This document shows positions 5,806 to 64,000 of a stretch of 64,000 nt of DNA, in pieces. Both the position numbers and the translations under genes were made by a program. Position 1 is the first letter of the stretch, and every line of letters starts with the position of its first letter. Under the pieces are notes generated by a model that made no database searches, was not told the origin of the DNA, and saw nothing but the letters and a program-made list of their open reading frames with translations. Origin of the DNA: the human T2T-CHM13v2.0 reference genome, Homo sapiens; the NCBI RefSeq assembly GCF_009914755.1, contig NC_060925.1. The stretch is one strand, 5' to 3'.

Positions 5806-6920
5806 TTCCCTAGAAAGGGAGTTTTCAAGGAGGTGGCATCATCATCCAACATCAGCAGATTATTCCATGCATCGCAAAGTCAAATTTAACATTTTGCTTT
5901 TTTCTATTATATATAATAAACTTATTTGCTCACTTCTAACATTTGTCATTTTCAGCCTTCATTTTACCAGCACAGACTCTAGCTCTCGGTATTTGGGCCT
6001 TAAGATCTTCACAAACAAACAAATCTTTCTGAAATAGAAAAAAAAAAAAACAGACCCAAAAATCTAACACTATAGTGACCTCCTACTAGGCTTTAAGTTT
6101 AAACGGATTAGGGCAGGAAGTTTTACGTTCCTGTCGTATTTGCTGAAGGTGTATGGCAGGGTGCGGCGCCTGTTGCAGGATTCCAGCAGGGCCTGCCCTG
6201 GCTCCCCAGGGCTTTGCAAGGAAGCTGGAGAAGTCCGCCACCTCGCTGTCACTGCACATCAGTAGACCCCTATCCCCACCCGCAAACTCAGGGCACCCAC
6301 AGTCTCTCCAAGGACTGCAGTTTTGTCGCCAGATTGTGGGAACATCTGTCTTGAATCTAAAGAGACAAAACAGATGGGCTTGGTTTCGGAGTTCCGCCCA
6401 CTCCCCAGTGTGCTGTTGTTAGTGACCACAGGAGTGGGAGCAGTCCAGAGAGGTTCAGCCCAGGAACTCATTAAACTAAGCTCCTCCGAAAGGCACCTTC
6501 CAGTGTGGATGGGGGCAAGGAGGGAGGAGGGCAACTGGGGCCCAGCAGAACTCCTTCCTCCCAGAGCCCTTACAAAGGCAAGGGAGGTCGGCCTGGGCCA
6601 AGCTCCCCGCCCACCCTCCCAGCTTTGCACCCCCTTCTCAGCCAGACCCACTGCCCTCTCACAATGCAGAAATGAAGATGGAAGGAAACAGGGAACATGC
6701 AACCGCCAGACTCCCTCTGGAGCCCAAGTAACTGTTCCACAGTGTGCATAAAGGGGCCAAGCTGGTGCTCCTCCGGCTTGATGGAGTTGGTCAGTAGAAA
6801 CTAGGATGTCCCAACCTTGTGATCCGTGGTCCATGCAGCACATTGTAGAGACATTGGTTGACTTTTCCATGAGTTAAACCCTGTCTGGGGATGGCATCCC
6901 AGACCCAGTCCGGAATGAAG

Positions 6921-7000
6921 GACATGACTGAGTAATAAGGGGACTGTGTGCTTAACAGAAGACATGACTGAGTAATAAGGGGGCTGTGTGGTTAATAGAA
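6921..7000. repeat. 40-bp tandem duplication (3 mismatches)
   Basis: gacatgactgagtaataagggg(a/g)ctgtgtg(c/g)ttaa(c/t)agaa x2. Confidence 0.92.
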
Positions 7001-7219
7001 GCCCTGTGTTGCCGAATCAGGCTCACACTGGAGCCATGCAGCACCTCACAAGGGGAGCTGAACTCCGACAAGCACCACCGCCCTGATGTGCAACTGTGTT
7101 GAACAGCCTGGCCTAGAGCAAAGTCACCAGGATCACCAAGTAAAGCTTCCCTTATTTGAAAAACTCACATATAAATATTATGACCTAGTCTGCTCACCCT
7201 CATATTTTAGAATAATATT

Positions 7220-8210
<991 letters not shown>

Positions 8211-9189
8211 AAAGTTGAAGTAAGGAGGCCCAAAACCTTAGTCTCAGATCTATCCTTCTAAATACTAGGAGTCTTCTGGGTGATGCGGATGAAATCACAG
8301 GCTGAGATACAGATAGAATTCCAACTCTTCAGTGCCTCATACCAGCTTGGAGCCACATGCTGCTCTGTCACTCCCATCCCCCAGGGACCAGCCTTCCCAA
8401 AGGGTGTGGTCATTGTTTAGAATGTGCCACTCCTCTGGGTGTAGGTTTTCCCCTCAAATCACTGCAAATACTGCTGAAAGAAAATGTGGCCTTTACCTCC
8501 CATCAGTGAGGTGATTTAAACTCTCACTCTCAGACCTTAGCTTCCTCTGCCTTGGAGGATTTGATCAAGTTGAGTGGAAAGAATAGCAAGTATTTTTACA
8601 GTACTTTACATGGCTTTGCATGCAAATTGCTGGGTTTTTTTTTAATAGATCAAAAGCAGTCAAACATCAGCAACTTCATATGATTCTTTACCTTATGTGA
8701 AGATTGTTGACTGACTCAATCAATTACCAGTTAATCCAGCCAGCCAGCTAACTGGGGAAACAAAACTATTATAACTCATGAAGTAATTATAGGACTAAAT
8801 GATGTGGTGATGGCATTTTACAAAGCAATATTTCCAAGTGTTATCTTGCTTAATCTTCACATCTGCCCCACTGAGGGGCTCTGTGTCATCTCCACATTAC
8901 TAAATTCACTGGGCTTCTATGTGGCAGAACCAGGTGAGTCCTTCAAAATACTTCAAATTCTCCAAGGCAGCTCAGGCTGCCCCTTACCAGTCGCCACGGT
9001 GCTTAGATGGGCAGAGAGGAAGGGAGCAGCATACGCACAGGGTCAGATGACACTCAGCCTCATCGAGGATGCAGAGAGAAAATAACTCAATGGAGAGAAG
9101 CAAGCATTAGGGGGGTTAAATGACCAGGTTGGTGGGGGGAATTAAATTATAGACGGTCTTAAAAAACAGGCAGGGGAGGTTTTTCTGTT

Positions 9190-9445
9190 TTTGTTTTCGT
9201 TTTGTTTTGTTTTGTTTTGTTTTGTTTTAAAGACAGGATCGCACTCTGTTGCCCAGGCTGGAGTACAGTGGCACCAACATAGCTCACTGTAACTTCAAAC
9301 TCCAGGACTCAAGCGATCCTACCGCTTCAGCTTCCTGAGAAGCTGGGACTACAGGCGCATGCCACCACGTCTGACTAATTTTTGTTTTTATTTTTTGTGG
9401 AGATGGGGTCTCAAACTCCTGTCCTCAAGCAATCCTCCCATCTTA
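9190..9445 (-). mobile_element. Alu (AluJ-like, partly deleted) with (TTTTG)n tail
   Basis: Reverse Alu sequence. Confidence 0.88.
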
Positions 9446-9605
9446 GAGTTTGCCTTTTAAAGTCATCATCCTTAGAACTGGAAGAAACTAAAAGAGATGT
9501 CCTGTTCTAGCCCACAGATTTCACACAGGAAAGAGCTACCTTCTTCATTTTACAAAATAAACAACTGAGGCTCACAGATTTGGTTAGATGTAGAGGGTAG
9601 GCTAG

Positions 9606-9929
<324 letters not shown>

Positions 9930-10249
9930 TGTCTGTTGCTTATTATAGCTCATCGCATTGACCTAGACTTACTCTTAAGATTAAAAAATTACTGTCTTGC
10001 CTAACAAGCTGTCTTATGTATAGGCTGTTACTATTTAAAACTATTTCACATTTCCAAAGTGGCAACAAAGATTGTAGGTTCTTAAGGAGAATTTCTTGAC
10101 AGTGATATAATACAAGTGTTCTAGAAAGATTAGTCTGTCAAAAGCATTCATATAGATCAGAGAAGAGGAAGAGTGGAGTCAGGAAAATAAATAAATTAGT
10201 GAGGCTCCAGAAATGCACTGGATATGTGGCCTAGAAGCAATTTCTCTCT

Positions 10250-10882
<633 letters not shown>

Positions 10883-11159
10883 ATGGGGAGAAATCTAGAT
10901 GATGTCAGATGAATAGTGATTCACTGCCAGAAATGGGGAAGACAAGTGTAAGAGCCCATTCTGGATGAGGAAAGATATTGAGTTTGAAGAGAGAGAAGTT
11001 GCTGTTTAGGAGGCAGCTGGAGATACAAGACTAGACATCAGTGTGATGTTGATACTAGAAACAGAAATTTAGGAGTCATTAATGCTGAGGTAAAGATACA
11101 AACTACAAGAATGGATGAGCTCACCAAGAGCCATAGTCTTGTGAGAAAACTCAAGGGCC

Positions 11160-38943: not shown

Positions 38944-39949
38944 TTACAGCGTGAAATCGCAAGGGGCTTCAAGATAGTTTAAAATCCTCTCCACTATTTA
39001 CCCCATCTTTAAAAAATGCTTCAGACTGTGGGAAAACTAAAGTGGCTCTCTGTAATTCCTGGATATGGCAATTGAGTAGGAAATGTGGCTTTGAGGGGAC
39101 CAAATTTAGAAGTAATTGAAGAGGCAGCACCATCTAACTGATGGAGAATCCGACTGGATTTTCTGTTCCTTCATCCATTGAGCTGGCTTGACACTTCCCT
39201 TCTCAGTGCTTTTGTTTGATTTTTTGTAAAATGAGAGTCACGCTACTAGATAATCTCCAGAGACCTGTATAAGAGTCTATGAAATTTTTTTTAGATGTTG
39301 AAATATTTTTAGACTTTGCACAATTATTAAATGTATTGAGATACCTGATAAATATATTTATTAATAAAATGGTATAGGCAAAGAGCATAGACAGATGATT
39401 CATAAGAAAAAATACACATAATTAATGAACATTTCCAAAGGTCACTTTTACTAATAATCACAATTTTCTACTTATCCCAACAATACATATTTTTTAAAAA
39501 CAGTTCACACTAAAGAGTCATATGCAGAGTGTTGAGATAATCTTGTTTGCTTGGAAGGTCATGGAGATGCAGATAAACCTCCAAATCCAGCAGGGTCTAA
39601 GCAGGATGGGGACCTGATTTTTTGCAGCCTGCTCCACCCATTGACTTTTGTGATGGACTCGGTTAGTTTTGTCTGCCTGCTTTCTGGGTCCTTTTCTTCT
39701 ACTGTCAGCACTCCCCAGGTAGCCACTCATCCCCAACTCTCAGGCCATTTGTTTTGTGAATGCTGGGCAACACCGCCCCCACCACCCCCATCGACTCCAG
39801 TAGAATTTAATTCTTGGGCTTTGGTCAGAATGATCAGGAAAGCGACATTCCTTTCTGCTAGCACTAATAGCTTTAAGAATGCACAGGCCAGGAGTTGCTG
39901 TGCTGCGACGAGAGGGCCTGACTGAAAAGAAAACCAACACAAGGAAAGC

Positions 39950-40837
39950 TGTAGGGATATAGGACAAACCAAAGTGTTTTTTCCTACCCTCTACTCTCAC
40001 ACAGTCACTCAGTATAATACTTCAGACACCAGATGTGGGGGTGGTCTTCCCCCACACACCAAGCAATCCTGCAGATGATTCTCTGATGGATACAAGTTGA
40101 GTGTCTTCAAATCAAATTCTATTCTATTCTCACACTGTCTTCCTGAAGATAGCAAGAGATCCCACAGGTTGAGGGCTCAGTCCCATGACACTGCCCCCAC
40201 TTCAGAATGCCAGTTGCAAGTGTAGGATGTGACCAGTGTTTCTGACCAACCAGCTATAAACTGGGGTGTTCCCAACCCCTTCCTTGGGTTCCGTTAATTT
40301 GCCAAGCGGCTCACAGAACTCAGGGAAACAGTTTACTTACATCGAGCCATTTATTATATAGTATATTACAAAGGATACAGATGAACAGCCAGGTGAAGAG
40401 ATGCACAGGGCAAGGAAAGTGGGAGGGAACCTGGAGCTTTCATGTCTTCTCTGGGTGCCTTACCCTCCAGGCACCTCCATGTGTTCAGCTATCTGCAAGT
40501 TCCCAGAACTCAGTCCTTTGGGGTTTATATGTAAGCTTCATTACATATAATGATTCAATCGTGATTAAATTATTGGTCACTGGTTTATCAACCCAACCTT
40601 CAGTCCCTCCCCACTCCCCAGAGGTCAGGAGGTGTGGGGTAGAAAGCTCCACCCCGCTAATCACATGGCTGGTTTCTCTGGCCACCAGCCCCCATTCTGA
40701 GGCTATCTGGGAGCCCCAGCTACCAGTCATCTCATTAATATACAAAAGACACTCATCACTCAGGAGATTTCAAGGATTTGGGGAGCTTTATGTCAGGAAA
40801 CAGGACAATGAGCAAAAATATATTTCAAAATATTACA
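39950..40837 (-). mobile_element. Solo LTR (MER21-like)
   Basis: TG...CA ends; atcccacaggttgagggctcagtccca and gctcacagaactcagggaaaca motifs; 5-bp TSD aaagc at 39945-39949 and 40838-40842. Confidence 0.85.
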
Positions 40838-55999: not shown

Positions 56000-57037
56000 T
56001 TATTGCAGACCTGCTAAGGAGGGCACCATCCTAGGCATTGGACATAGAGCCATGAACAAGTTGGATATGACCCCTCTTCATGGAGCTCACATTCTAGGGC
56101 AAAAGGCATGCAATAAGCAAGAAAACAAATGTATATAAAATCTACATTGGGAGAAGTACTCAGAAGAAAATAAAGACAGAAAAATGGGATAGAGAATGAC
56201 TGGGGGGTGAGAGAGGTGCCAAATTTGGTTTGTGTGGTGACAGAAGGCTTCTCTAAGAAGGTGACATCTGCCCTCAGGCCTCAATGATGATAAAGAGCCA
56301 GCCATATGAAAATGGGCAGGAAAATAATTCCAGGATGAGGGATAGCAAGTACAAAGTCTCTAAGGTGGGAATGAGTTTGGCATGACCATGGTAACAAGGA
56401 ATGGAGAGGGGAATGGTGATAAAGAGTTAGGGACTGCAGACTTGCATCCTGGACCTATTGCTAATTTTCTGTATTGCTTAGTTAAGTCTAGGTGATCACT
56501 AAGGCTCTGACATGTTATGGTTCTCTAATTTACGGAGCATATTCAATGTGACAATAACAAGAAGTACCATGCAGAGAATAAAGAAACAAGATAATGTCCT
56601 ATGTATGGTGCAAAAAGAATGGGCTTTGAAAGCAGCTTAACTCATTTGGATCCACATGTATTAACCACGTATTATTGGATAACTTCTTCAAGGCCTTATT
56701 AGTCTCGGCTTCTTCACTGATAAAAATAGGTATAATGCTAAATAGCACAGAGTGACCAGAAAAATTGACTGAGATGTGTAATAAAACCAAGCCCAGTGTT
56801 TGGCGCATATTAGCAGCTCAAAAAATGTTATTTTAAATCTTCTGTCTGGGGAACACGACTGATAATACTCATTATAAAGGCATGTGAAAACATCTAAGGA
56901 GAGGATGAAAGGGTTCATTAATCACAGATCTGTGTGACATACCTACTAAGTGCCAGGCACTGCTCTAAGTGCTGGGGATGGACTGATGAGCATGACACAC
57001 ACCCTGTTTCTTTTGGAGCTTGCATTCTGGATAGGGA
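56000..57037 (-). mobile_element. L2 fragments (with a plus-strand MIR at ~56610-56830); host site of the ERV insertion
   Basis: ttcatggagctcacattctag; gaaggcttctctaagaaggtgacat; cctactaagtgccaggcactg. Confidence 0.65.
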
Positions 57038-57498
57038 TGTAGCAGGACGAGCTGCAGACAAAACTCCTCAGACACCGAGTTAAAGAAGGAAGGGGTTTAT
57101 TCAGCCGGGGGCATCGGCAAGACTCCTGTCTCAAGAGCCGAGCCCCCCGAATGAGCAATTCCTGTCCCTTTTAAGGGCTCACAACTCTAAGGGGGTGCGC
57201 GTGAGAGGGTCGTGATTGATTGAGCAAGCAGGGGGTATGTGACTGGGGGCTGCATGCACCGGTAATTATATCGGAACAAAACAGGATAGGGATTTTCACA
57301 GTGCTTTTCTATACAATGTCTGTATCTATGGATAACATAACCGATTAGGTCAGGGGTCGATCTTTGACTACCAGGCCCAGGGTGTGGCACCAGGCTGTCT
57401 GCTTGTGGATTTCATTTCTGCCTTTTAGTTTTTACTTCTTCTTTCTTTGGAGGCAGAAACTGGGCATAAGACAGTATGAGGGGTGGTCTCCTCCCTTA
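57038..57498 (-). mobile_element. 3' LTR (LTR2)
   Basis: Reverse complement reads taagggaggagaccacccctca...aataaaccccttcc...cctgctaca; preceded by PPT aaagtggggaaa (57499-57510). Confidence 0.93.
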
Positions 57499-57519: not shown

Positions 57520-59585
57520 ACTCAATAGTGGGAGTTCTCACTTTTATTTTTACTACCGATGTTTTCTTGCAAGACAGATCGATAGTGATTTATATAGTAC
57601 ACTTGTGCTGAAGCATTTTGGTGAACTAAGGTAACGATGAAGTTTTTATCATTTGAAGAAGTACAGGTAGCAAACAAGGGAGCAGTAAGCAGGTTCCTAT
57701 TACTATTATAACTCTTATTATAAGAGTTTTACATCTTTCTAGTGCTGGGAACCATTTTCTAAACATGGCCCCAGGATCAAATCCATGCCACACTTGCACA
57801 GGCATATGTGCCAGTTTTGTCATATCTCTAACTATGTCTTTAACTACTTGCCCTTGATTATCTATGTGTAGGCAGCAATTAGTAAGGTTAAATTTCCTAC
57901 AGACCTCTCTTTCAGCTGCTAGCAAGTAGTCGAGAGCTAATCTATTTTGATAGATAGCATTTCTCTTCTGAGTTTCTTGCCGGTCCAGAATAGTCAAGGC
58001 TCTGCCGGTTTTATTAGTGATTATTTTTAAGATAGCTTGTAACAATATGATTCGGTTGATCATGTAAATGGGGGTCCGGTATCCCCACGAGCTGTCTTGT
58101 GCTTAAGTAGCAGGCCTATAATATTGTATGATTCTCTCAGGGGGCCATTTATTATTTTTAAAATTTTCTATAGCTATGCTTCTCTTTTCATGGGAAGCAT
58201 AGACAGGGAAGCCCAGGAGTTCACCTGTTTTTATGGGCAGTAGGAAGAAAGATGGTTTAATAGTGCCAATAACACAACTACCTGCCCACTGGTCAGGTAA
58301 TTTGGTGTAAGCTCTATGCCCACATATCCAGTATAATCCAGTGGGGGCTGTCCAGTCCCGGTGGGACTCCGGGTGGGTCCACACGGTTTGCAACTTTGGG
58401 AATTTACTAAATGGATTTCTCTCTGTGTGATTTGAACTCCACCAAGTGACTGTTTTTGTGGTACCATTCTACAGTTTCTGTCTCAGACAACTAAGTCGTC
58501 CTACGGGGTGAGTGAATTCTTTTCCTTCTCTAGCTATGCAATATTGTCTAATAATTGAGGCTTTTAGGACCCAGAAATTATCAGGGTGATTCTTTTGAGC
58601 CGGGAATTCACCAGAAACTGGGTCTGTAGGTACTAATTCTCAGGCTTCCCCTGGCCATTGATCTCCTATTACAGTTCCTCCACATACGTACCATGAACTG
58701 ATATTGAGAGACTGTGTTATATGCTCGGCTAATTGCAAAAACAAATTTCTTGTTTTTCCTGGAATTTCTGGTGCTGGCACATTTAGTTCATCATAGAAAG
58801 TTTGAAACACTGGCTCAGGAGAGCATTTGTAAACCTCTCCTCGAACCAAGATATTTACTCGAGGATCCAGTCCGGCCCCATCGATTCTTAAGGTCACACG
58901 CTCCTCTTTTTTTCTAGCAAGGATCAAGGGGATTGGTTATTGCTAGCTCTAAGGGGTTACATTGTCCTTTAGTACAGGAAGGGCCATTTTTTCCTTTCTG
59001 AAGGTGGACTGGATCTTTTTTATTTTTTTAATCCAAGTGGCCTAAATGACACAAGACCAGTATTTACATTTATTTCTACACAGTCCTAATTTATGGCAGA
59101 TGTACTTATTTTCTGCCATATAGCCTCTTTTCTAATTAAGAGAACACACCTTGTTTCTAACTTATTACCATTAATGACAGCACAGGCATCAAATTTTAAG
59201 GTGACTTGTTTGGGCACCCCTTTTTCTTCTGTTTGGCTGACAATTTACTCATATCGTTTATGAGCCTCCACCAGTCCTCAGTCCTTAATCTTATTTTAAA
59301 AACTGTGGTTATGGGAGGATCAGATGGGTCATAACACACATCAGGTTGGTCATTTACTGGGCTACATACCTTGTATAGAATAACATTATACAAACAAGTT
59401 CTTTTTAGAGTTCCAGTACACTTATAATAACTGTAAAATAATAGGAACGTAGCAACCTTTTGCCCTACCTTAGTGACTTGATGTATACACTGGGAACAGT
59501 CCTCAGTCTGAGGAACGTCAGTTGACGTCCTTACTGTAAAAGTCCAAATTTTAAGGAAAATGAAACCCGCGACTAGTTTTCTCAT
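57520..59585 (-). pseudogene. Disrupted HERV-E-type env
   Basis: Signal-peptide-like MRKLVAGFIFLKIW, CSQC motif, cleavage site [19 protein letters not shown]6CC ([10 protein letters not shown]) and TM segment; split over several ORFs by stops and frameshifts. Confidence 0.9.
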
Positions 59586-59715
59586 GCTTCAGCCGTGCGT
59601 GGACCAGTCAGCTTCTGGGTGTGACTGGAGCAGGGCTTGTCGTCTTCTTCAGAGTCACTTTGCAGGGGTTGGCAAAGCTGCTCCCATCCACGTACTGCTC
59701 ACAGTCTACTGATGT

Positions 59716-60225
59716 TTAAGGATGGTCTCGGAGGTTGGGCCTGCTAGAATAAACTGAGTCCAACACCTCTACACAGTTATGTTCAACTGGGCTCTCTGAT
59801 ACCAGGAGCAAGGTGGTGGGGTTTAGGGTGTTGCAAACTTCAATGGTTATGTGGGGATTTTCACATAGCAAGCTTTGGTGCTTGGTTAATCTAGCATTTG
59901 TTAGCCAATGATGTCCTTTGGTAGTCATTAAAGTTACCAAAGCATGGGGGACTTTTATATTCAGGTTTTGCCTAAGGGTTAGTTTATCTGCTTCTTGTGC
60001 TAACAGGGCCTTTGCTGCTAGGGCCCTTAGACCTGGGGGCCAGCCTTTGGAAACCCCATCTAGTTGTTTTGAGAGATAGGCCACTGGCCTTGGCCAGGGC
60101 CCCACAGTCTGGGTTAAAACTCCAACTGCCGTTTTTTCTCATTCTGACACATAAAGTGTAAAGAGTTTTGTCAGGTCAGGTAGCCTCAGGGCTGGGGCCG
60201 ACATGAGTTTTTCTTTTAACTCATG
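59716..60225 (-). pseudogene. Gammaretroviral pol fragment (RT connection/tether)
   Basis: GPWPRPVAYLSKQLDGVSKGWPP.LRALAA...WLTNARLTK...LNPTTLL. Confidence 0.9.
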
Positions 60226-60328: not shown

Positions 60329-61100
60329 TCAAGCTTTAAATTGATCTGCTATTCTTTGTGGGACTCCAATTGCGTCTAAATAGACATGAGAGTCGAAAGA
60401 CCCGTAAGGGGCTTCTCTTGCTTTACGATGTCTTATTTTTTTTCCTTCCGGTTGATGAAATGCCAGGGCGAAAGGGATGGCCAGTTGGACTAAAGTACAA
60501 GTGCCACTCCAGTTATTCGGCAGAGTGCCCAGTAAAGGTCCACCACAATACCACCACACATCCGCTCAGGGATGAACAAGGGCTGACTGATTGATAAGCT
60601 CTTGAAAATTCTTAAGCTCACTGCATCCCTCCAGGTCTCCAAGGAACGCTGTCTCCTCCTTGTCGTGAGAGACACGAAGTGAACTCAGTGTTGGGAGAAG
60701 GAGGCTGGATGGCCCTGGGGGGCTGACCTGCAGGGTGCCGGACTTTGAGATATAGCAGAGAGAGCTTGGCACGACTTATTTCTCCAGGCTGTAGAATCCT
60801 GAAAAACAGCTACCATGCAGCCTACACCTGGTCGACTGGAGGACCACCTTAGTGGAAAGGGGACAATCTGGGCCTCTGGCCTGCCATGTGCACAAGCATA
60901 ACAGTTGCTTTTGTTTAACATGCAGATAGAATATTTGATCCATTTTAACCAGGCATTTGCATCTTGGTATCCTGTCTTAATTGCTAAAGTTTGTTTTAAG
61001 TCTTTAACTTCTATGATCCTCTAGTAAAATGAATGTATGGTTTTAGGAAATTACAAAAACCAGTTAGGGCAGTCCATCCTTGCTCTTTAGTGGTCAACAG
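60329..61100 (-). pseudogene. Second, unrelated env fragment (HERV-I/HERVIP10-like)
   Basis: LNKSNCYACAHGRPEAQIVPFPL; WWYCGGPLLGTLPNNWSGTCTLVQLAIPF; RKAR; SFDSHVYLDAIGVP. Confidence 0.7.
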
Positions 61101-62917
61101 AATGTTGGACCAACTATGGCATGAAAGCTCTACATCAGGGGCAAGACTCCTGGTTGGCACTGGGGTGTTTATCGAAATCTCCCCGGATTAAATGGTCCTA
61201 GTTTACTAGTGCCCAGTCTGAGGAGAGTCAGGAGGGACAGAAGTACTTTTCTGAAGTAGAAAGCTGTCTTTGGCTTGGCAAGTCCCCACAGGGTATAACA
61301 AGGCAAGCATTAAATGCAATAGTTTGAGGCAAAATTGACTTGGTTATGTTAATAGATGGTCAGCAATAGAACAGTAACAGTAACAGAATAGATGAAAAGA
61401 GTTAAATTTTTCTTAGCTTTAGTTTGGTAGGGCTTTCCCCCGGGACTACGGCCATGACTCTGGAGGGGGTGGTGCTTTCTTGACTCGGGTGTGATGAGTC
61501 CATCCTTTTTTTTTTTTTTTTTTTTTTTTGCTGTACAAACAGCAGTCTTGGTGGTTAGCAGCACAAGGTAGGGTCCTTCCCAGGCTGGCTCGAGTTTTTC
61601 TTCTTTTCACCCTTTGATGAGAACGTGATCTTCAGGCTGGTGCTGGTTTACCGGAAATTTTAGGGGTGGTACATGTGCTAAAAGACTTTTAGTTTTTGAG
61701 AGAAAGGAAAGTGGAAGATAAACCAAGTATATAATTTTTAAGAAATTGACCTTTTGTTTTAAATGTGGGGACCTTGGCAGTGGACTTTAGAGTCCTTAGT
61801 GCCTTTTTACTGAGAAATTTCCTTTAGCACCTATTTTTATTAGTTTTTAAACCAAAGAAAGCCAAATACCATTTTACATTTAACAATGCTTCTCGTATGA
61901 TTTTTATACCAGATAAGCTAAATTTTATCTTTATATTAGTGTGTTATTAATGTTAAACCTAATTTTAATAAAACCTTGTAGACATATTTATCTAATTTTT
62001 AATGTTTGACCATAAGGTAAGATTTTACAGACTCTTTTTAACCTTTTATAATTTTTGCTAAAAAGAAGGTTGGTGCTTTAAGAAAAACCTGCTATGCTTT
62101 TACTTTAATGTCCAGTTTACAAAAAAACTGGATGATACTTCTTTAACTTTAGCTAATATGTGTACACAGAGAATTATTTTTACAATTAATGTTTTAACAC
62201 TTGTTTAAACATTCAAAACAGTAATTTTTTTTAACTTTTTAATGTAGGTAAAAATGTACATTCTTATGCCTCCTTATAATTCTTTTACCAAAGGTATACT
62301 TTACTTTTTTTATACACCTTGCACATAAACTTTTTTTTTTTTAATAGTTTTACATTCAGGAGGCCTAGTTACTTTTAAATTATGCAACATTTTTTGCATA
62401 AATTCTTTTTTATAACTTTTTTTCTTTCATGACTTTTGAAGACAATTCTTTGACATGTCTCAACTTTATGACTTACTACAAATATTTCTTTCTTTAAACA
62501 ACCAGTTAATTTATTTCAGAGCAAGAATTTACCATATAATACTTTTTATATAAATTCCACCTTCCCTTTTTTTTCCTTTTTTTTTTCCCTTAGGATACTT
62601 CTGAACTGGCGAGGTGTGCTCACAATGAGGTTTTCTCTAAAAGTTATTGTTTTTTACTTTTGTTGTTGTCGTTGTTGTTGTTGTTAGCAAAACAGTTGCT
62701 GCTACAGATTGAATGCATTTGGGCCATCCGCGGGTTACTGGGTTAAGGATTTTTGATAGGAAGGCCTCAGTGCTTTCGGGATACGCCCTTGTTTACACTG
62801 ACAAAGTGGTATTGGAGTGTTATAGGGTTACGGAGGATACCTTCAATTATCGATTATAGGTTTTAAATTTACCTTGGCTTTTAAAAGAATAGGGTACACT
62901 TTTTTTTAACTACTTGT

Positions 62918-63125
62918 ATATCTCTTTCTTTCTCTCTTTGACTTTGTCTCTCTCTTTTTGACTCCTTTTGCGTCTGTCTCTTCCTCTCTCTCTCTGCCTC
63001 CTCTTTCTCTCTCTCTCCTTGACTTCCTCTTTGTCTGTCTCTTCCTCTGTCTCTTCCTCTCTCTCTTTGCCTCTTTTCCTCTCTGTCTCTTTCCTTTCTC
63101 TCTCTCTGCTGGTCTTTCCTTGCCT
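62918..63125. repeat. (CT)-rich polypyrimidine low-complexity tract
   Basis: Direct: tctctttctttctctctttg... Confidence 0.9.
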
Positions 63126-63152
63126 TTGCCAGCTGCTTCTGCTGCTGTTCTC

Positions 63153-63998
63153 TCAACCACTGTGTGTTGGGGGCGGGGGGCCTAAAACCAGCTGTAACCA
63201 AGTGTCTACGTACCGGAACTGGTCTGGCTGTAACCAAGTGTCTACGTACCGGAACTGGTCTGGCTGTAACCAAGTGTCTACGTACCGGAACTGGTCTGGC
63301 TGTAACCAAGTGTCTACGTACCGGAACTGGTCTGGCTGTAACCAAGTGTCTACGTACCGGAACTGGTCTGGCTGTAACCAAGTGTCTACGTACCGGAACT
63401 GGTCTGGCTGTAACCAAGTGTCTACGTACCGGAACTGGTCTGGCTGTAACCAAGTGTCTACGTACCGGAACTGGTCTGGCTGTAACCAAGTGTCTACGTA
63501 CCGGAACTGGTCTGGCTGTAACCAAGTGTCTATGTACCGGAACTGGTCTGGCTGTAACCAAGTGTCTATGTACCGGAACTGGTCTGGCTGTAACCAAGTG
63601 TCTACGTACCGGAACTGGTCTGGCTGTAACCAAGTGTCTACGTACCGGAACTGGTCTGGCTGTAACCAAGTGTCTATGTACCGGAACTGGTCTGGCTGTA
63701 ACCAAGTGTCTATGTACCGGAACTGGTCTGGCTGTAACCAAGTGTCTACGTACCGGAACTGGTCTGGCTGTAACCAAGTGTCTACGTACCGGAACTGGTC
63801 TGGCTGTAACCAAGTGTCTACGTACCGGAACTGGTCTGGCTGTAACCAAGTGTCTACGTACCGGAACTGGTCTGGCTGTAACCAAGTGTCTACGTACCGG
63901 AACTGGTCTGGCTGTAACCAAGTGTCTATGTACCGGAACTGGTCTGGCTGTAACCAAGTGTCTACGTACCGGAACTGGTCTGGATTCCCTGGCTTACA
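63153..63998 (-). pseudogene. gag matrix fragment with in-frame 12-aa repeat expansion (5' end outside the window)
   Basis: Hand translation: CKPGN-(PDQFRY[V/I]DTWLQ)x22-LVLGPPPPTHSG*; resembles MLV MA GHPDQVPYIVTW. Confidence 0.8.
63191..63982. repeat. 36-bp minisatellite (VNTR-like), exactly 22 copies
   Basis: gctgtaaccaagtgtcta(c/t)gtaccggaactggtctg; 792 bp = 22 x 36; only one variable position. Confidence 0.98.
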
Positions 63999-64000
63999 GG

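What the first reader, a model, noticed from the sequence alone, without database searches (positions are those of the whole stretch)
63153..63998. Near-perfect 22 x 36-bp array amplifies the conserved Gag matrix motif in frame inside an old provirus
Seen: 22 tandem 36-bp units differ at only one position, while the surrounding provirus is full of stops and frameshifts. The gag frame is missing from the ORF track because it has no start codon in the window. On the minus strand it reads CKPGN-(PDQFRY[V/I]DTWLQ)x22-LVLGPPPPTHSG*, open for at least 281 codons. Known: this matches the gammaretroviral matrix motif (MLV GHPDQVPYIVTW), normally single-copy. Inference: the array expanded long after integration and is likely length-polymorphic. 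If the 5' LTR and gag ATG upstream are intact, the locus could encode a truncated Gag-MA with a variable polypeptide repeat.
Basis: partly seen in the sequence, partly recalled or inferred. Interest (0 to 1): 0.85.

Follow-up and report, generated by a model that had tools for sequence, protein, structure and literature searches.

The report
Young minisatellite inside a dead HERV-E provirus
A 36-base piece of a long-dead endogenous retrovirus gag gene has been copied 22 times in a row at this one human locus, making an ordinary non-coding minisatellite and not a repeat-bearing Gag protein.

Summary
Window 63191-63983 is a 22.0 x 36-bp array. 17 units carry C and 5 carry T at one CpG site.

It lies in the matrix (MA) part of gag of an 8.3-kb HERV-E/Harlequin-type provirus:
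- The provirus spans 57038-65334 on the minus strand, and its 5' part lies beyond the window.
- The LTR pair differs by K2P 0.066.
- The primer-binding site matches the 3' end of tRNA-Glu.
- With X at the stop, the frame hits Pfam Gag_MA at E 1.6e-11 and MLV p15 (1mn8) at E 1.7e-9.

The expansion is private to this locus. All 39 other copies that one search listed in this genome carry one unit. All 21 genome-wide unit-to-unit junction matches fall in this array. All 22 units share a base that none of 37 aligned paralogs has.

The coding idea fails. There is no ATG between it and the array or inside the array. The upstream MA reading is spread over three frames with more stops. Four of six frames are open through the array, so openness means little.

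Best reading: a young, probably length-polymorphic, TE-derived VNTR. Polymorphism and any regulatory effect were not tested.

The parts
63191..63983 (-). 22 x 36-bp tandem array (minisatellite). 17 units have C and 5 have T at unit position 19. In the provirus sense frame each unit reads PDQFRY[V/I]DTWLQ.
63153..63155 (-). TGA that closes the MA-derived frame downstream of the array
63984..64000 (-). Last bases of the window: part of the nine MA-frame codons (HKVTCKPGN, window-equivalent 63984-64010) between the upstream stop and the array, with no ATG. The rest of the provirus lies beyond the window (locus L009 = window coordinate minus 63000):
- in-frame TGA stop at 64011-64013 (L009 1011-1013);
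- remains of the N-terminal part of gag MA at about 64014-64240, spread over three frames with further stops, including a 35-aa ATG-started frame from 64118 down to 64011 that ends at the TGA;
- 18-nt tRNA-Glu primer-binding site at 64852-64869;
- 5' LTR at 64875-65334.
62973..63107 (.). CT/GA-rich low-complexity stretch directly downstream of MA; shared by paralogs
61352..61606 (-). Integrase C-terminal fragment (MLVIN_C, 26 bits, below the cutoff of 29.2). It lies 5' of the RNase H fragment, which is a non-canonical order.
59719..60138 (-). RT RNase H-like fragment (PF17917, 25.1 bits, cutoff 24.8)
57629..59588 (-). env remnants in several broken frames (TLV_coat 20.2 bits, below the cutoff of 22.5). 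The longest frame is 158 aa.
57038..57498 (-). 3' LTR: 29 substitutions and 3 gap columns against the 5' LTR over 460 aligned bases

Best explanation
This is a non-coding minisatellite (VNTR) that arose at this one locus by tandem duplication of a 36-bp piece of the gag matrix region of an old, degraded HERV-E/Harlequin-type provirus. It then grew and was kept uniform by unequal exchange, gene conversion or replication slippage. The provirus integrated roughly 15-33 million years ago. The present units trace back to a common unit far more recently, on the order of a few million years or less. The 12-residue reading is a leftover of the sequence's origin and of a unit length divisible by three. 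No protein is made from it by ordinary initiation.

Shown: the array, its position in MA, its uniqueness to this locus, and the closed frame.

Inferred: the mechanism of growth, the dates, and length polymorphism.
For: - Array: 22.0 copies, 99% matches, one variable site.
- Provirus anatomy: paired LTRs of 460 aligned bases, K2P 0.066. The primer-binding site is the complement of the tRNA-Glu gene 3' end: the 15-mer lies at the 3' end of a tRNA-Glu gene in 5 of 5 loci scanned, out of 36 genome matches.
- Position in MA: Gag_MA at E 1.6e-11; MLV p15 (1mn8) at E 1.7e-9.
- One unit per paralog: in 39 of 39 other copies listed, the downstream-flank and upstream-flank alignments overlap in one 36-bp stretch (27 of 27, 12 of 12). 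A direct search with the unit finds exactly one hit of 24 nt or more in 36 of the 39, none in 3, and two or more in 0.
- Uniqueness: the 28-nt unit-to-unit junction, with up to 3 mismatches, matches 21 times in the genome, all in this array.
- Private bases: all 22 units read ACCGG where 37 aligned paralogs read ACGGG, ACAGG, ATGGG or AAGGG (0 of 37 ACCGG). The major C at the variable site is seen in 1 of 37 paralogs, and none has CG there (33 TG, 2 TA, 1 CA, 1 GC).
- Block duplication: the variant order (9 C, then TTCC TTCC, then CCC T C) shows a 4-unit block repeated, as unequal exchange would give.
- No coding frame: TGA five codons upstream, no ATG, and the upstream MA reading spread over three frames.
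- RefSeq lists no gene or transcript between window 38928 and 74931 (hub annotation in the task).
- TE-derived minisatellites are a described class: at least 7,276, or 23% of human minisatellites and satellites (PMC3389668, passages read).
Against: - Nothing here measures length variation, so the V in VNTR is inferred.
- Homogeneity can come from ongoing turnover of an older array as well as from recent birth, so the array's age of origin is not fixed.
- The array is CpG-dense (39 CpG, observed/expected 0.73, GC 52%), against 0.35 in the rest of the provirus. This could hint at protection from germline methylation and hence at some activity, but it is also what a young array of a unit with two CpGs would show.
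- Single-stranded DNA folding of three units is no better than shuffles (z 0.40 and -0.36), so a hairpin-driven slippage mechanism has no support.
Confidence: 0.88

Rival explanations
1. One reading: the locus encodes a truncated Gag-MA protein with a variable 12-residue repeat, translated from the proviral gag start.
For: The array is in frame with a real MA remnant. A 5' LTR and a primer-binding site are present upstream.
Against: An in-frame TGA lies five codons before CKPGN. There is no ATG between it and the array and none within the array. Further upstream the MA reading needs three frames and crosses more stops. Four of six frames are open through the array. RefSeq has no transcript here (hub annotation).
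Confidence: 0.01
2. The array is a functional regulatory element. It would be a CpG-island-like block of 22 repeated binding sites whose length tunes a nearby gene (TGFBR3, CDC7 or a distal target).
For: - 793 bp at GC 52% with CpG observed/expected 0.73 meets the classical CpG-island arithmetic (criteria recalled), against 0.35 in the rest of the provirus.
- The base private to this locus makes CCGGAA in every unit, a core resembling ETS-factor sites (recalled, not scanned).
- The locus sits in the CDC7-TGFBR3 interval, which holds optic-disc GWAS signals (PMC7583307, passages read).
Against: - RefSeq functional elements in the window (5827-6828, 39442-40008) do not include the array (hub annotation).
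- The GWAS block described in PMC7583307 is a 4-kb region that I place about 50 kb away, using offsets worked out from recalled gene coordinates.
- A young array of a unit with two CpGs would show the same CpG density without any function.
- No methylation, chromatin or expression data could be consulted.
Confidence: 0.08
3. The array was inherited from the infecting virus or a master copy, that is, it is a family feature.
For: None found.
Against: 39 of 39 paralogs listed carry one unit. There are 0 junction matches outside this locus.
Confidence: 0.01
4. The array is an assembly artefact, with the copy number inflated or collapsed.
For: None. Raw reads could not be checked.
Against: The array is only 793 bp, with unique flanks on both sides and an internal variant pattern. 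That is short compared with the long reads used for telomere-to-telomere assemblies (general knowledge).
Confidence: 0.02

Closest known systems
TE-derived minisatellites (Ahmed and Liang 2012, PMC3389668)
   Same: A piece of a transposable-element copy is tandemly duplicated after insertion at one locus, while other copies of the family keep one unit. HERVs are reported there as relatively prone to this (passages read).
   Different: This one lies in a gag-MA coding remnant, has a unit length divisible by three, and is unusually uniform (one variable site in 22 units). No paper found names this locus (searches; supplement search).
Harlequin / HERV-E proviruses (Vargiu et al. 2016, PMC4724089; Kapitonov and Jurka as cited there)
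   Same: - LTR pair and tRNA-Glu primer-binding site.
- HERV-E-like MA at the 5' end and a prominent env at the 3' end.
- The other genes are deleted or scrambled.
- LTR divergence of 6.3% is close to the 8% average reported for Harlequin.
- Seven paralogs are colinear with this copy over 1.6 kb downstream of the array.
   Different: The Repbase/Dfam models were not available, so the name Harlequin rests on layout, not on an alignment to the family model. The 22-unit array is not a family feature.
MLV matrix protein p15 (PDB 1mn8) / Pfam Gag_MA PF01140
   Same: The stretch just upstream of the array plus the first unit aligns to residues 37-87 of p15 and to profile positions 33-85 of 113.
   Different: Here the domain is a broken remnant with an internal stop, and its C-terminal motif is repeated 22 times.
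Protein-coding VNTRs of human genes
   Same: The unit length is a multiple of three and the frame through the array is open.
   Different: There is no start codon, a stop lies directly upstream, and there is no annotated transcript (hub annotation).

Membership tests
HERV-E / Harlequin-type gammaretrovirus-like provirus | Two LTRs in the same orientation flanking the internal region | tested here: met
   5' LTR at 64875-65334 and 3' LTR at 57038-57498, 431 of 463 alignment columns identical, K2P 0.066
HERV-E / Harlequin-type gammaretrovirus-like provirus | Primer-binding site complementary to the 3' end of tRNA-Glu | tested here: met
   An 18-nt site lies 5 bases after the 5' LTR. The complement of its tRNA-body part has 36 genome matches not followed by C. 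In 5 of 5 loci scanned it lies at the 3' end of a tRNA-Glu gene.
HERV-E / Harlequin-type gammaretrovirus-like provirus | Gammaretroviral Gag MA domain | tested here: met
   PF01140 at E 1.6e-11, 44.5 bits against a cutoff of 30, read with X at the stop. 1mn8 at E 1.7e-9.
HERV-E / Harlequin-type gammaretrovirus-like provirus | Gamma-type pol and env remnants | tested here: inconclusive
   RT_RNaseH scores 25.1 bits (cutoff 24.8). MLVIN_C at 26 (cutoff 29.2) and TLV_coat at 20.2 (cutoff 22.5) are below their cutoffs. 4 of the 8 proviral fragments downstream of the array that were scanned had no Pfam hit at E 0.01 or better.
Harlequin mosaic (LTR2-HERVE-MER57I-LTR8-MER4I-HERVI-HERVE-LTR2, as quoted in PMC4724089) | Alignment to the family model with that order of segments | not testable with these tools
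   No Repbase or Dfam library is available. Indirect evidence: the integrase C-terminal fragment lies 5' of the RNase H fragment, most of gag is missing, and paralogs share the layout.
Minisatellite / VNTR | Head-to-tail array of units of about 10-100 bp | tested here: met
   36 bp x 22.0
Minisatellite / VNTR | Copy number varies among individuals | not testable with these tools
   Only one human genome is held. A search of 3 of the 4 supplementary files of PMC8327921 for gene names and approximate coordinates found nothing.
TE-derived, locus-specific tandem repeat | The unit is part of a TE copy, and other copies of the family carry one unit | tested here: met
   39 of 39 paralogs carry one unit. 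All 21 junction matches lie in this array.
   TGA at 64011-64013, and no ATG in the 285-codon stop-to-stop frame
CpG island (length at least 200 bp, GC at least 50%, observed/expected at least 0.6; criteria recalled) | Sequence arithmetic | tested here: met
   793 bp, GC 0.522, 39 CpG, observed/expected 0.73
CpG island | Unmethylated in the germline or in tissues | not testable with these tools
   No methylation data could be reached.

The most novel reading that the evidence does not exclude
The array is a recent, possibly human-lineage-specific and length-polymorphic expansion. It turned a dead gag remnant into a CpG-island-like block of 22 identical sites. Each site carries a CCGGAA core made by a base private to this locus. 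On this reading the array acts as a length-dependent regulatory element in the CDC7-TGFBR3 interval, where trait associations are known.
Probability: 0.06. Interest if true: 0.5.

Novelty: new member of a known kind. Interest (0 to 1): 0.2.

Why it matters
As it stands it matters little. It is a clean example of a transposon-derived minisatellite. It also warns that a long open frame through a tandem array is not evidence of coding.

It would matter more in two cases. One is if unit number varies between people and tracks expression of TGFBR3 or other genes in an interval that carries eye-trait associations. The other is if ape genomes show the expansion to be human-specific.

Tried and rejected
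- Coding reading: rejected on the upstream TGA, the lack of any ATG and the broken upstream frame.
- Family-level array: rejected.
- Hairpin-prone unit as the driver of slippage: three units folded as DNA on either strand are no more stable than shuffles (z 0.40 and -0.36).
- Pfam on the array translation alone gave only repeat-driven matches with no accepted stretch (DUF3303, KilA-N). I disregard them.
- The GA-rich frame downstream of MA has no Pfam match, so my impression that it resembles a capsid charged tail stays a recollection.
- Literature searches found no paper that names this array. Terms used:
  - Harlequin / HERV-E / tandem repeat
  - TGFBR3 / VNTR / CDC7
  - Harlequin-int
  - locus-style names for 1p22 and 1p21 (0 papers)
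- A search of 3 of the 4 supplementary files of the human-specific VNTR paper PMC8327921 also found nothing (one file could not be searched, and my coordinates were estimates).
- Target-site duplication: the 4 bases outside the two LTRs match at 3 of 4 positions, so this is suggestive only.

Full report
**1. The observation**

The sequence at window 63191-63983 is a head-to-tail array of 36-bp units. Tandem Repeats Finder gives 22.0 copies, 99% matches, no indels and a score of 1551. The direct-repeat finder shows the same 36-bp register throughout.

Cut into units, 17 are identical. The other five (units 10, 11, 14, 15 and 21, counted on the + strand) differ only by T for C at unit position 19, which is the C of a CpG.

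One caveat concerns its weight. Two of the three frames on each strand are open through the array (one search shows a closed one). A 12-codon unit without a stop gives a long open frame whenever it is repeated. A unit length divisible by three has a prior of one in three.

**2. What surrounds it**

The held genome let me read beyond the window (locus L009 = window coordinate minus 63000). On the minus strand, going 5' from the array, I found the following:
- nine more codons of the same frame;
- an MA-like stretch;
- a leader with short repeats;
- an 18-nt primer-binding site (64852-64869);
- an LTR at 64875-65334.

This LTR matches a second LTR at window 57038-57498 with 431 of 463 columns identical. 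That is 29 substitutions in 460 aligned bases, K2P 0.066.

The complement of the tRNA-body part of the primer-binding site occurs 36 times in the genome when not followed by C. In 5 of 5 such loci scanned with ARAGORN it is the 3' end of a tRNA-Glu gene. This makes it a glutamate-primed, HERV-E-type provirus of 8,297 bp on the minus strand.

Pfam hits on its broken frames were as follows:

| Fragment | Score | Cutoff |
|---|---|---|
| Gag_MA (E 1.6e-11) | 44.5 bits | 30 |
| RNase H-like fragment | 25.1 bits | 24.8 |
| MLV integrase C-terminal fragment | 26 bits | 29.2 |
| TLV_coat | 20.2 bits | 22.5 |

The integrase fragment lies 5' of the RNase H fragment, and most of gag is missing. A scrambled interior with a prominent env fits the description of Harlequin: a HERV-E-backboned mosaic, mean LTR divergence 8%, other genes often deleted (PMC4724089, passages read). 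I could not align the provirus to the Repbase/Dfam model, so that name rests on layout only.

Seven paralogs are colinear with this copy at 88-92% identity (85-91% where the match is split) over up to 1.6 kb downstream of the array. The layout therefore belongs to the family and not to this locus.

**3. The unit is the MA motif**

I read the stretch just upstream of the array plus the first unit with X at the stop.
- It matches Pfam Gag_MA profile positions 33-85 of 113.
- It matches the solved MLV matrix protein p15 (1mn8, E 1.7e-9). There GHPDQVPYIVTW of MLV is aligned with GNPDQFRYVDTW of this locus.

**4. The expansion is private to this locus**

A search of the whole genome with window 63100-64000 listed this locus and 39 other places (40 of 316 first-look candidates were scored). 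Each of the 39 matched only the downstream flank plus about one unit.

I fetched all 39. I then aligned two queries to each: the downstream flank with the first unit, and the last unit with the upstream flank.
- In 39 of 39 the two alignments overlap in a single 36-bp stretch (27 of 27, 12 of 12).
- A direct search with the unit gives exactly one hit of 24 nt or more in 36 of the 39, none in 3, and two or more in none.
- The 28-nt junction between two units, with up to three mismatches allowed, occurs 21 times in the genome, all in this array.

Two bases set the array's unit apart from the paralogs.
- All 22 units read ACCGG. The 37 paralogs that could be aligned read ACGGG, ACAGG, ATGGG or AAGGG, and none reads ACCGG.
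- At the variable site the paralogs have TG in 33, TA in 2, CA in 1 and GC in 1. None has CG.

So the minority T units carry the state usual in the family, and the majority C is a change that spread within the array. The order of variants (nine C, then TTCC TTCC, then CCC T C) shows a four-unit block present twice. That is what unequal exchange produces.

**5. Age**

The dating below rests on assumed substitution rates of 1.0 to 2.2e-9 per site per year, which are recalled and not from a call. With these rates the LTR distance puts integration at about 15-33 million years ago.

With 0.5 to 1e-9 per site per year and a tenfold higher rate at CpG (again recalled), a 793-bp array should collect about 0.75-1.5 new substitutions per million years. 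The absence of any private change then bounds the common ancestry of the present units at roughly 2-4 million years at the 95% level.

The caveat is that continued homogenisation of an older array would look the same.

**6. The coding proposal**

In the array's MA frame an in-frame TGA lies at 64011-64013, five codons before the C of CKPGN and 11-13 bases beyond the window end.
- Stop to stop, the frame has 285 codons and no ATG.
- The only ATG-started frame on that strand nearby is 35 aa long and ends at that TGA.
- Further upstream the MA-like reading passes through all three frames and more stops.
- RefSeq lists no gene or transcript between window 38928 and 74931 (hub annotation in the task).

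The proposed truncated Gag-MA with a variable repeat is therefore not encoded in this haplotype.

The only ATG-started frame across the array is antisense: 189 aa, starting at an ATG made by the T variant in unit 10. I give it no weight.

**7. Mechanism and rivals**

The best-supported account is an ordinary TE-derived minisatellite. This class covers at least 7,276 arrays, or 23% of human minisatellites and satellites, and HERVs are relatively prone to it (PMC3389668, passages read).

A hairpin-driven slippage mechanism has no support. Three units fold no better than shuffles on either strand.

One feature deserves a second look, namely CpG density.
- The array has 39 CpGs, GC 52% and observed/expected 0.73. 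The rest of the provirus has 0.35.
- This meets the classical CpG-island arithmetic (criteria recalled).
- The private base makes a CCGGAA core in each unit. Its resemblance to ETS-factor sites is recalled and was not scanned.
- A young array of a two-CpG unit would show this density with no function at all.

The locus lies in the CDC7-TGFBR3 interval. The optic-disc association block described in PMC7583307 (passages read) is a 4-kb region. Using offsets I worked out from recalled gene coordinates, it falls near window 6,000-11,000, about 50 kb from the array, next to the RefSeq enhancers at 5827-6828.

**8. What is in print**

None of the full-text searches brought up a paper that names this array. 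A search of 3 of the 4 supplementary files of the human-specific VNTR study PMC8327921 found nothing either (one file could not be searched, and my coordinates were estimates). The search terms were:
- Harlequin / HERV-E / tandem repeat;
- TGFBR3 / VNTR / CDC7;
- Harlequin-int;
- locus-style names (0 papers).

Genome-browser repeat tracks and VNTR catalogues, which I could not see, very likely list the array.

**9. Verdict**

Single-copy status in the family is confirmed in this genome. Late expansion is supported. The coding potential is refuted for this haplotype. Polymorphism and function were not tested. It is a new example of a known kind, of low to modest interest.

Noticed in passing
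L009 532-1101 (+), i.e. window 63532 to 64101: Antisense to the provirus, the T variant in unit 10 makes an ATG that opens a 189-aa frame through the rest of the array (MYRNWSGCNQVS repeats). It is probably meaningless.
   Followed up: partly
L009 1311-1612 (window-equivalent 64311-64612): The proviral leader holds a 39-bp-period repeat (2.5 copies) and two copies of a segment of about 125 bp. The paralogs cross-match in the same way, so this is a family feature.
   Followed up: partly
window 61800-62600: A very AT-rich stretch (GC 24-25%) lies inside the provirus and is colinear in 7 paralogs. Its origin was not identified.
   Followed up: no
window 60332-61020 (-): Two open stretches between the integrase and RNase H fragments look by eye like pieces of a second envelope gene. 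They have no Pfam hit at E 0.01 or better. This would fit a mosaic provirus.
   Followed up: partly
window 61446-61606 (-): A run of A (K8 in translation) interrupts the integrase C-terminal remnant.
   Followed up: no
window 57034-57037 and window-equivalent 65335-65338: The four bases outside the two LTRs read TCCC and TCTC on the provirus strand. That is a 3-of-4 match for a target-site duplication.
   Followed up: partly
window 5827-6828: The RefSeq enhancers here seem to coincide with the 4-kb optic-disc GWAS/eQTL block of the CDC7-TGFBR3 interval discussed in PMC7583307. The coordinate conversion rests on recalled gene positions.
   Followed up: partly
G000:C1:160.56-160.73 Mb (loci L048-L067): tRNA-Glu genes recur at about 7.4-kb spacing in a tandem tRNA cluster, together with tRNA-Gly and tRNA-Asp. 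In L048 279-351 ARAGORN calls a tRNA with anticodon tta, which would read a stop codon.
   Followed up: no
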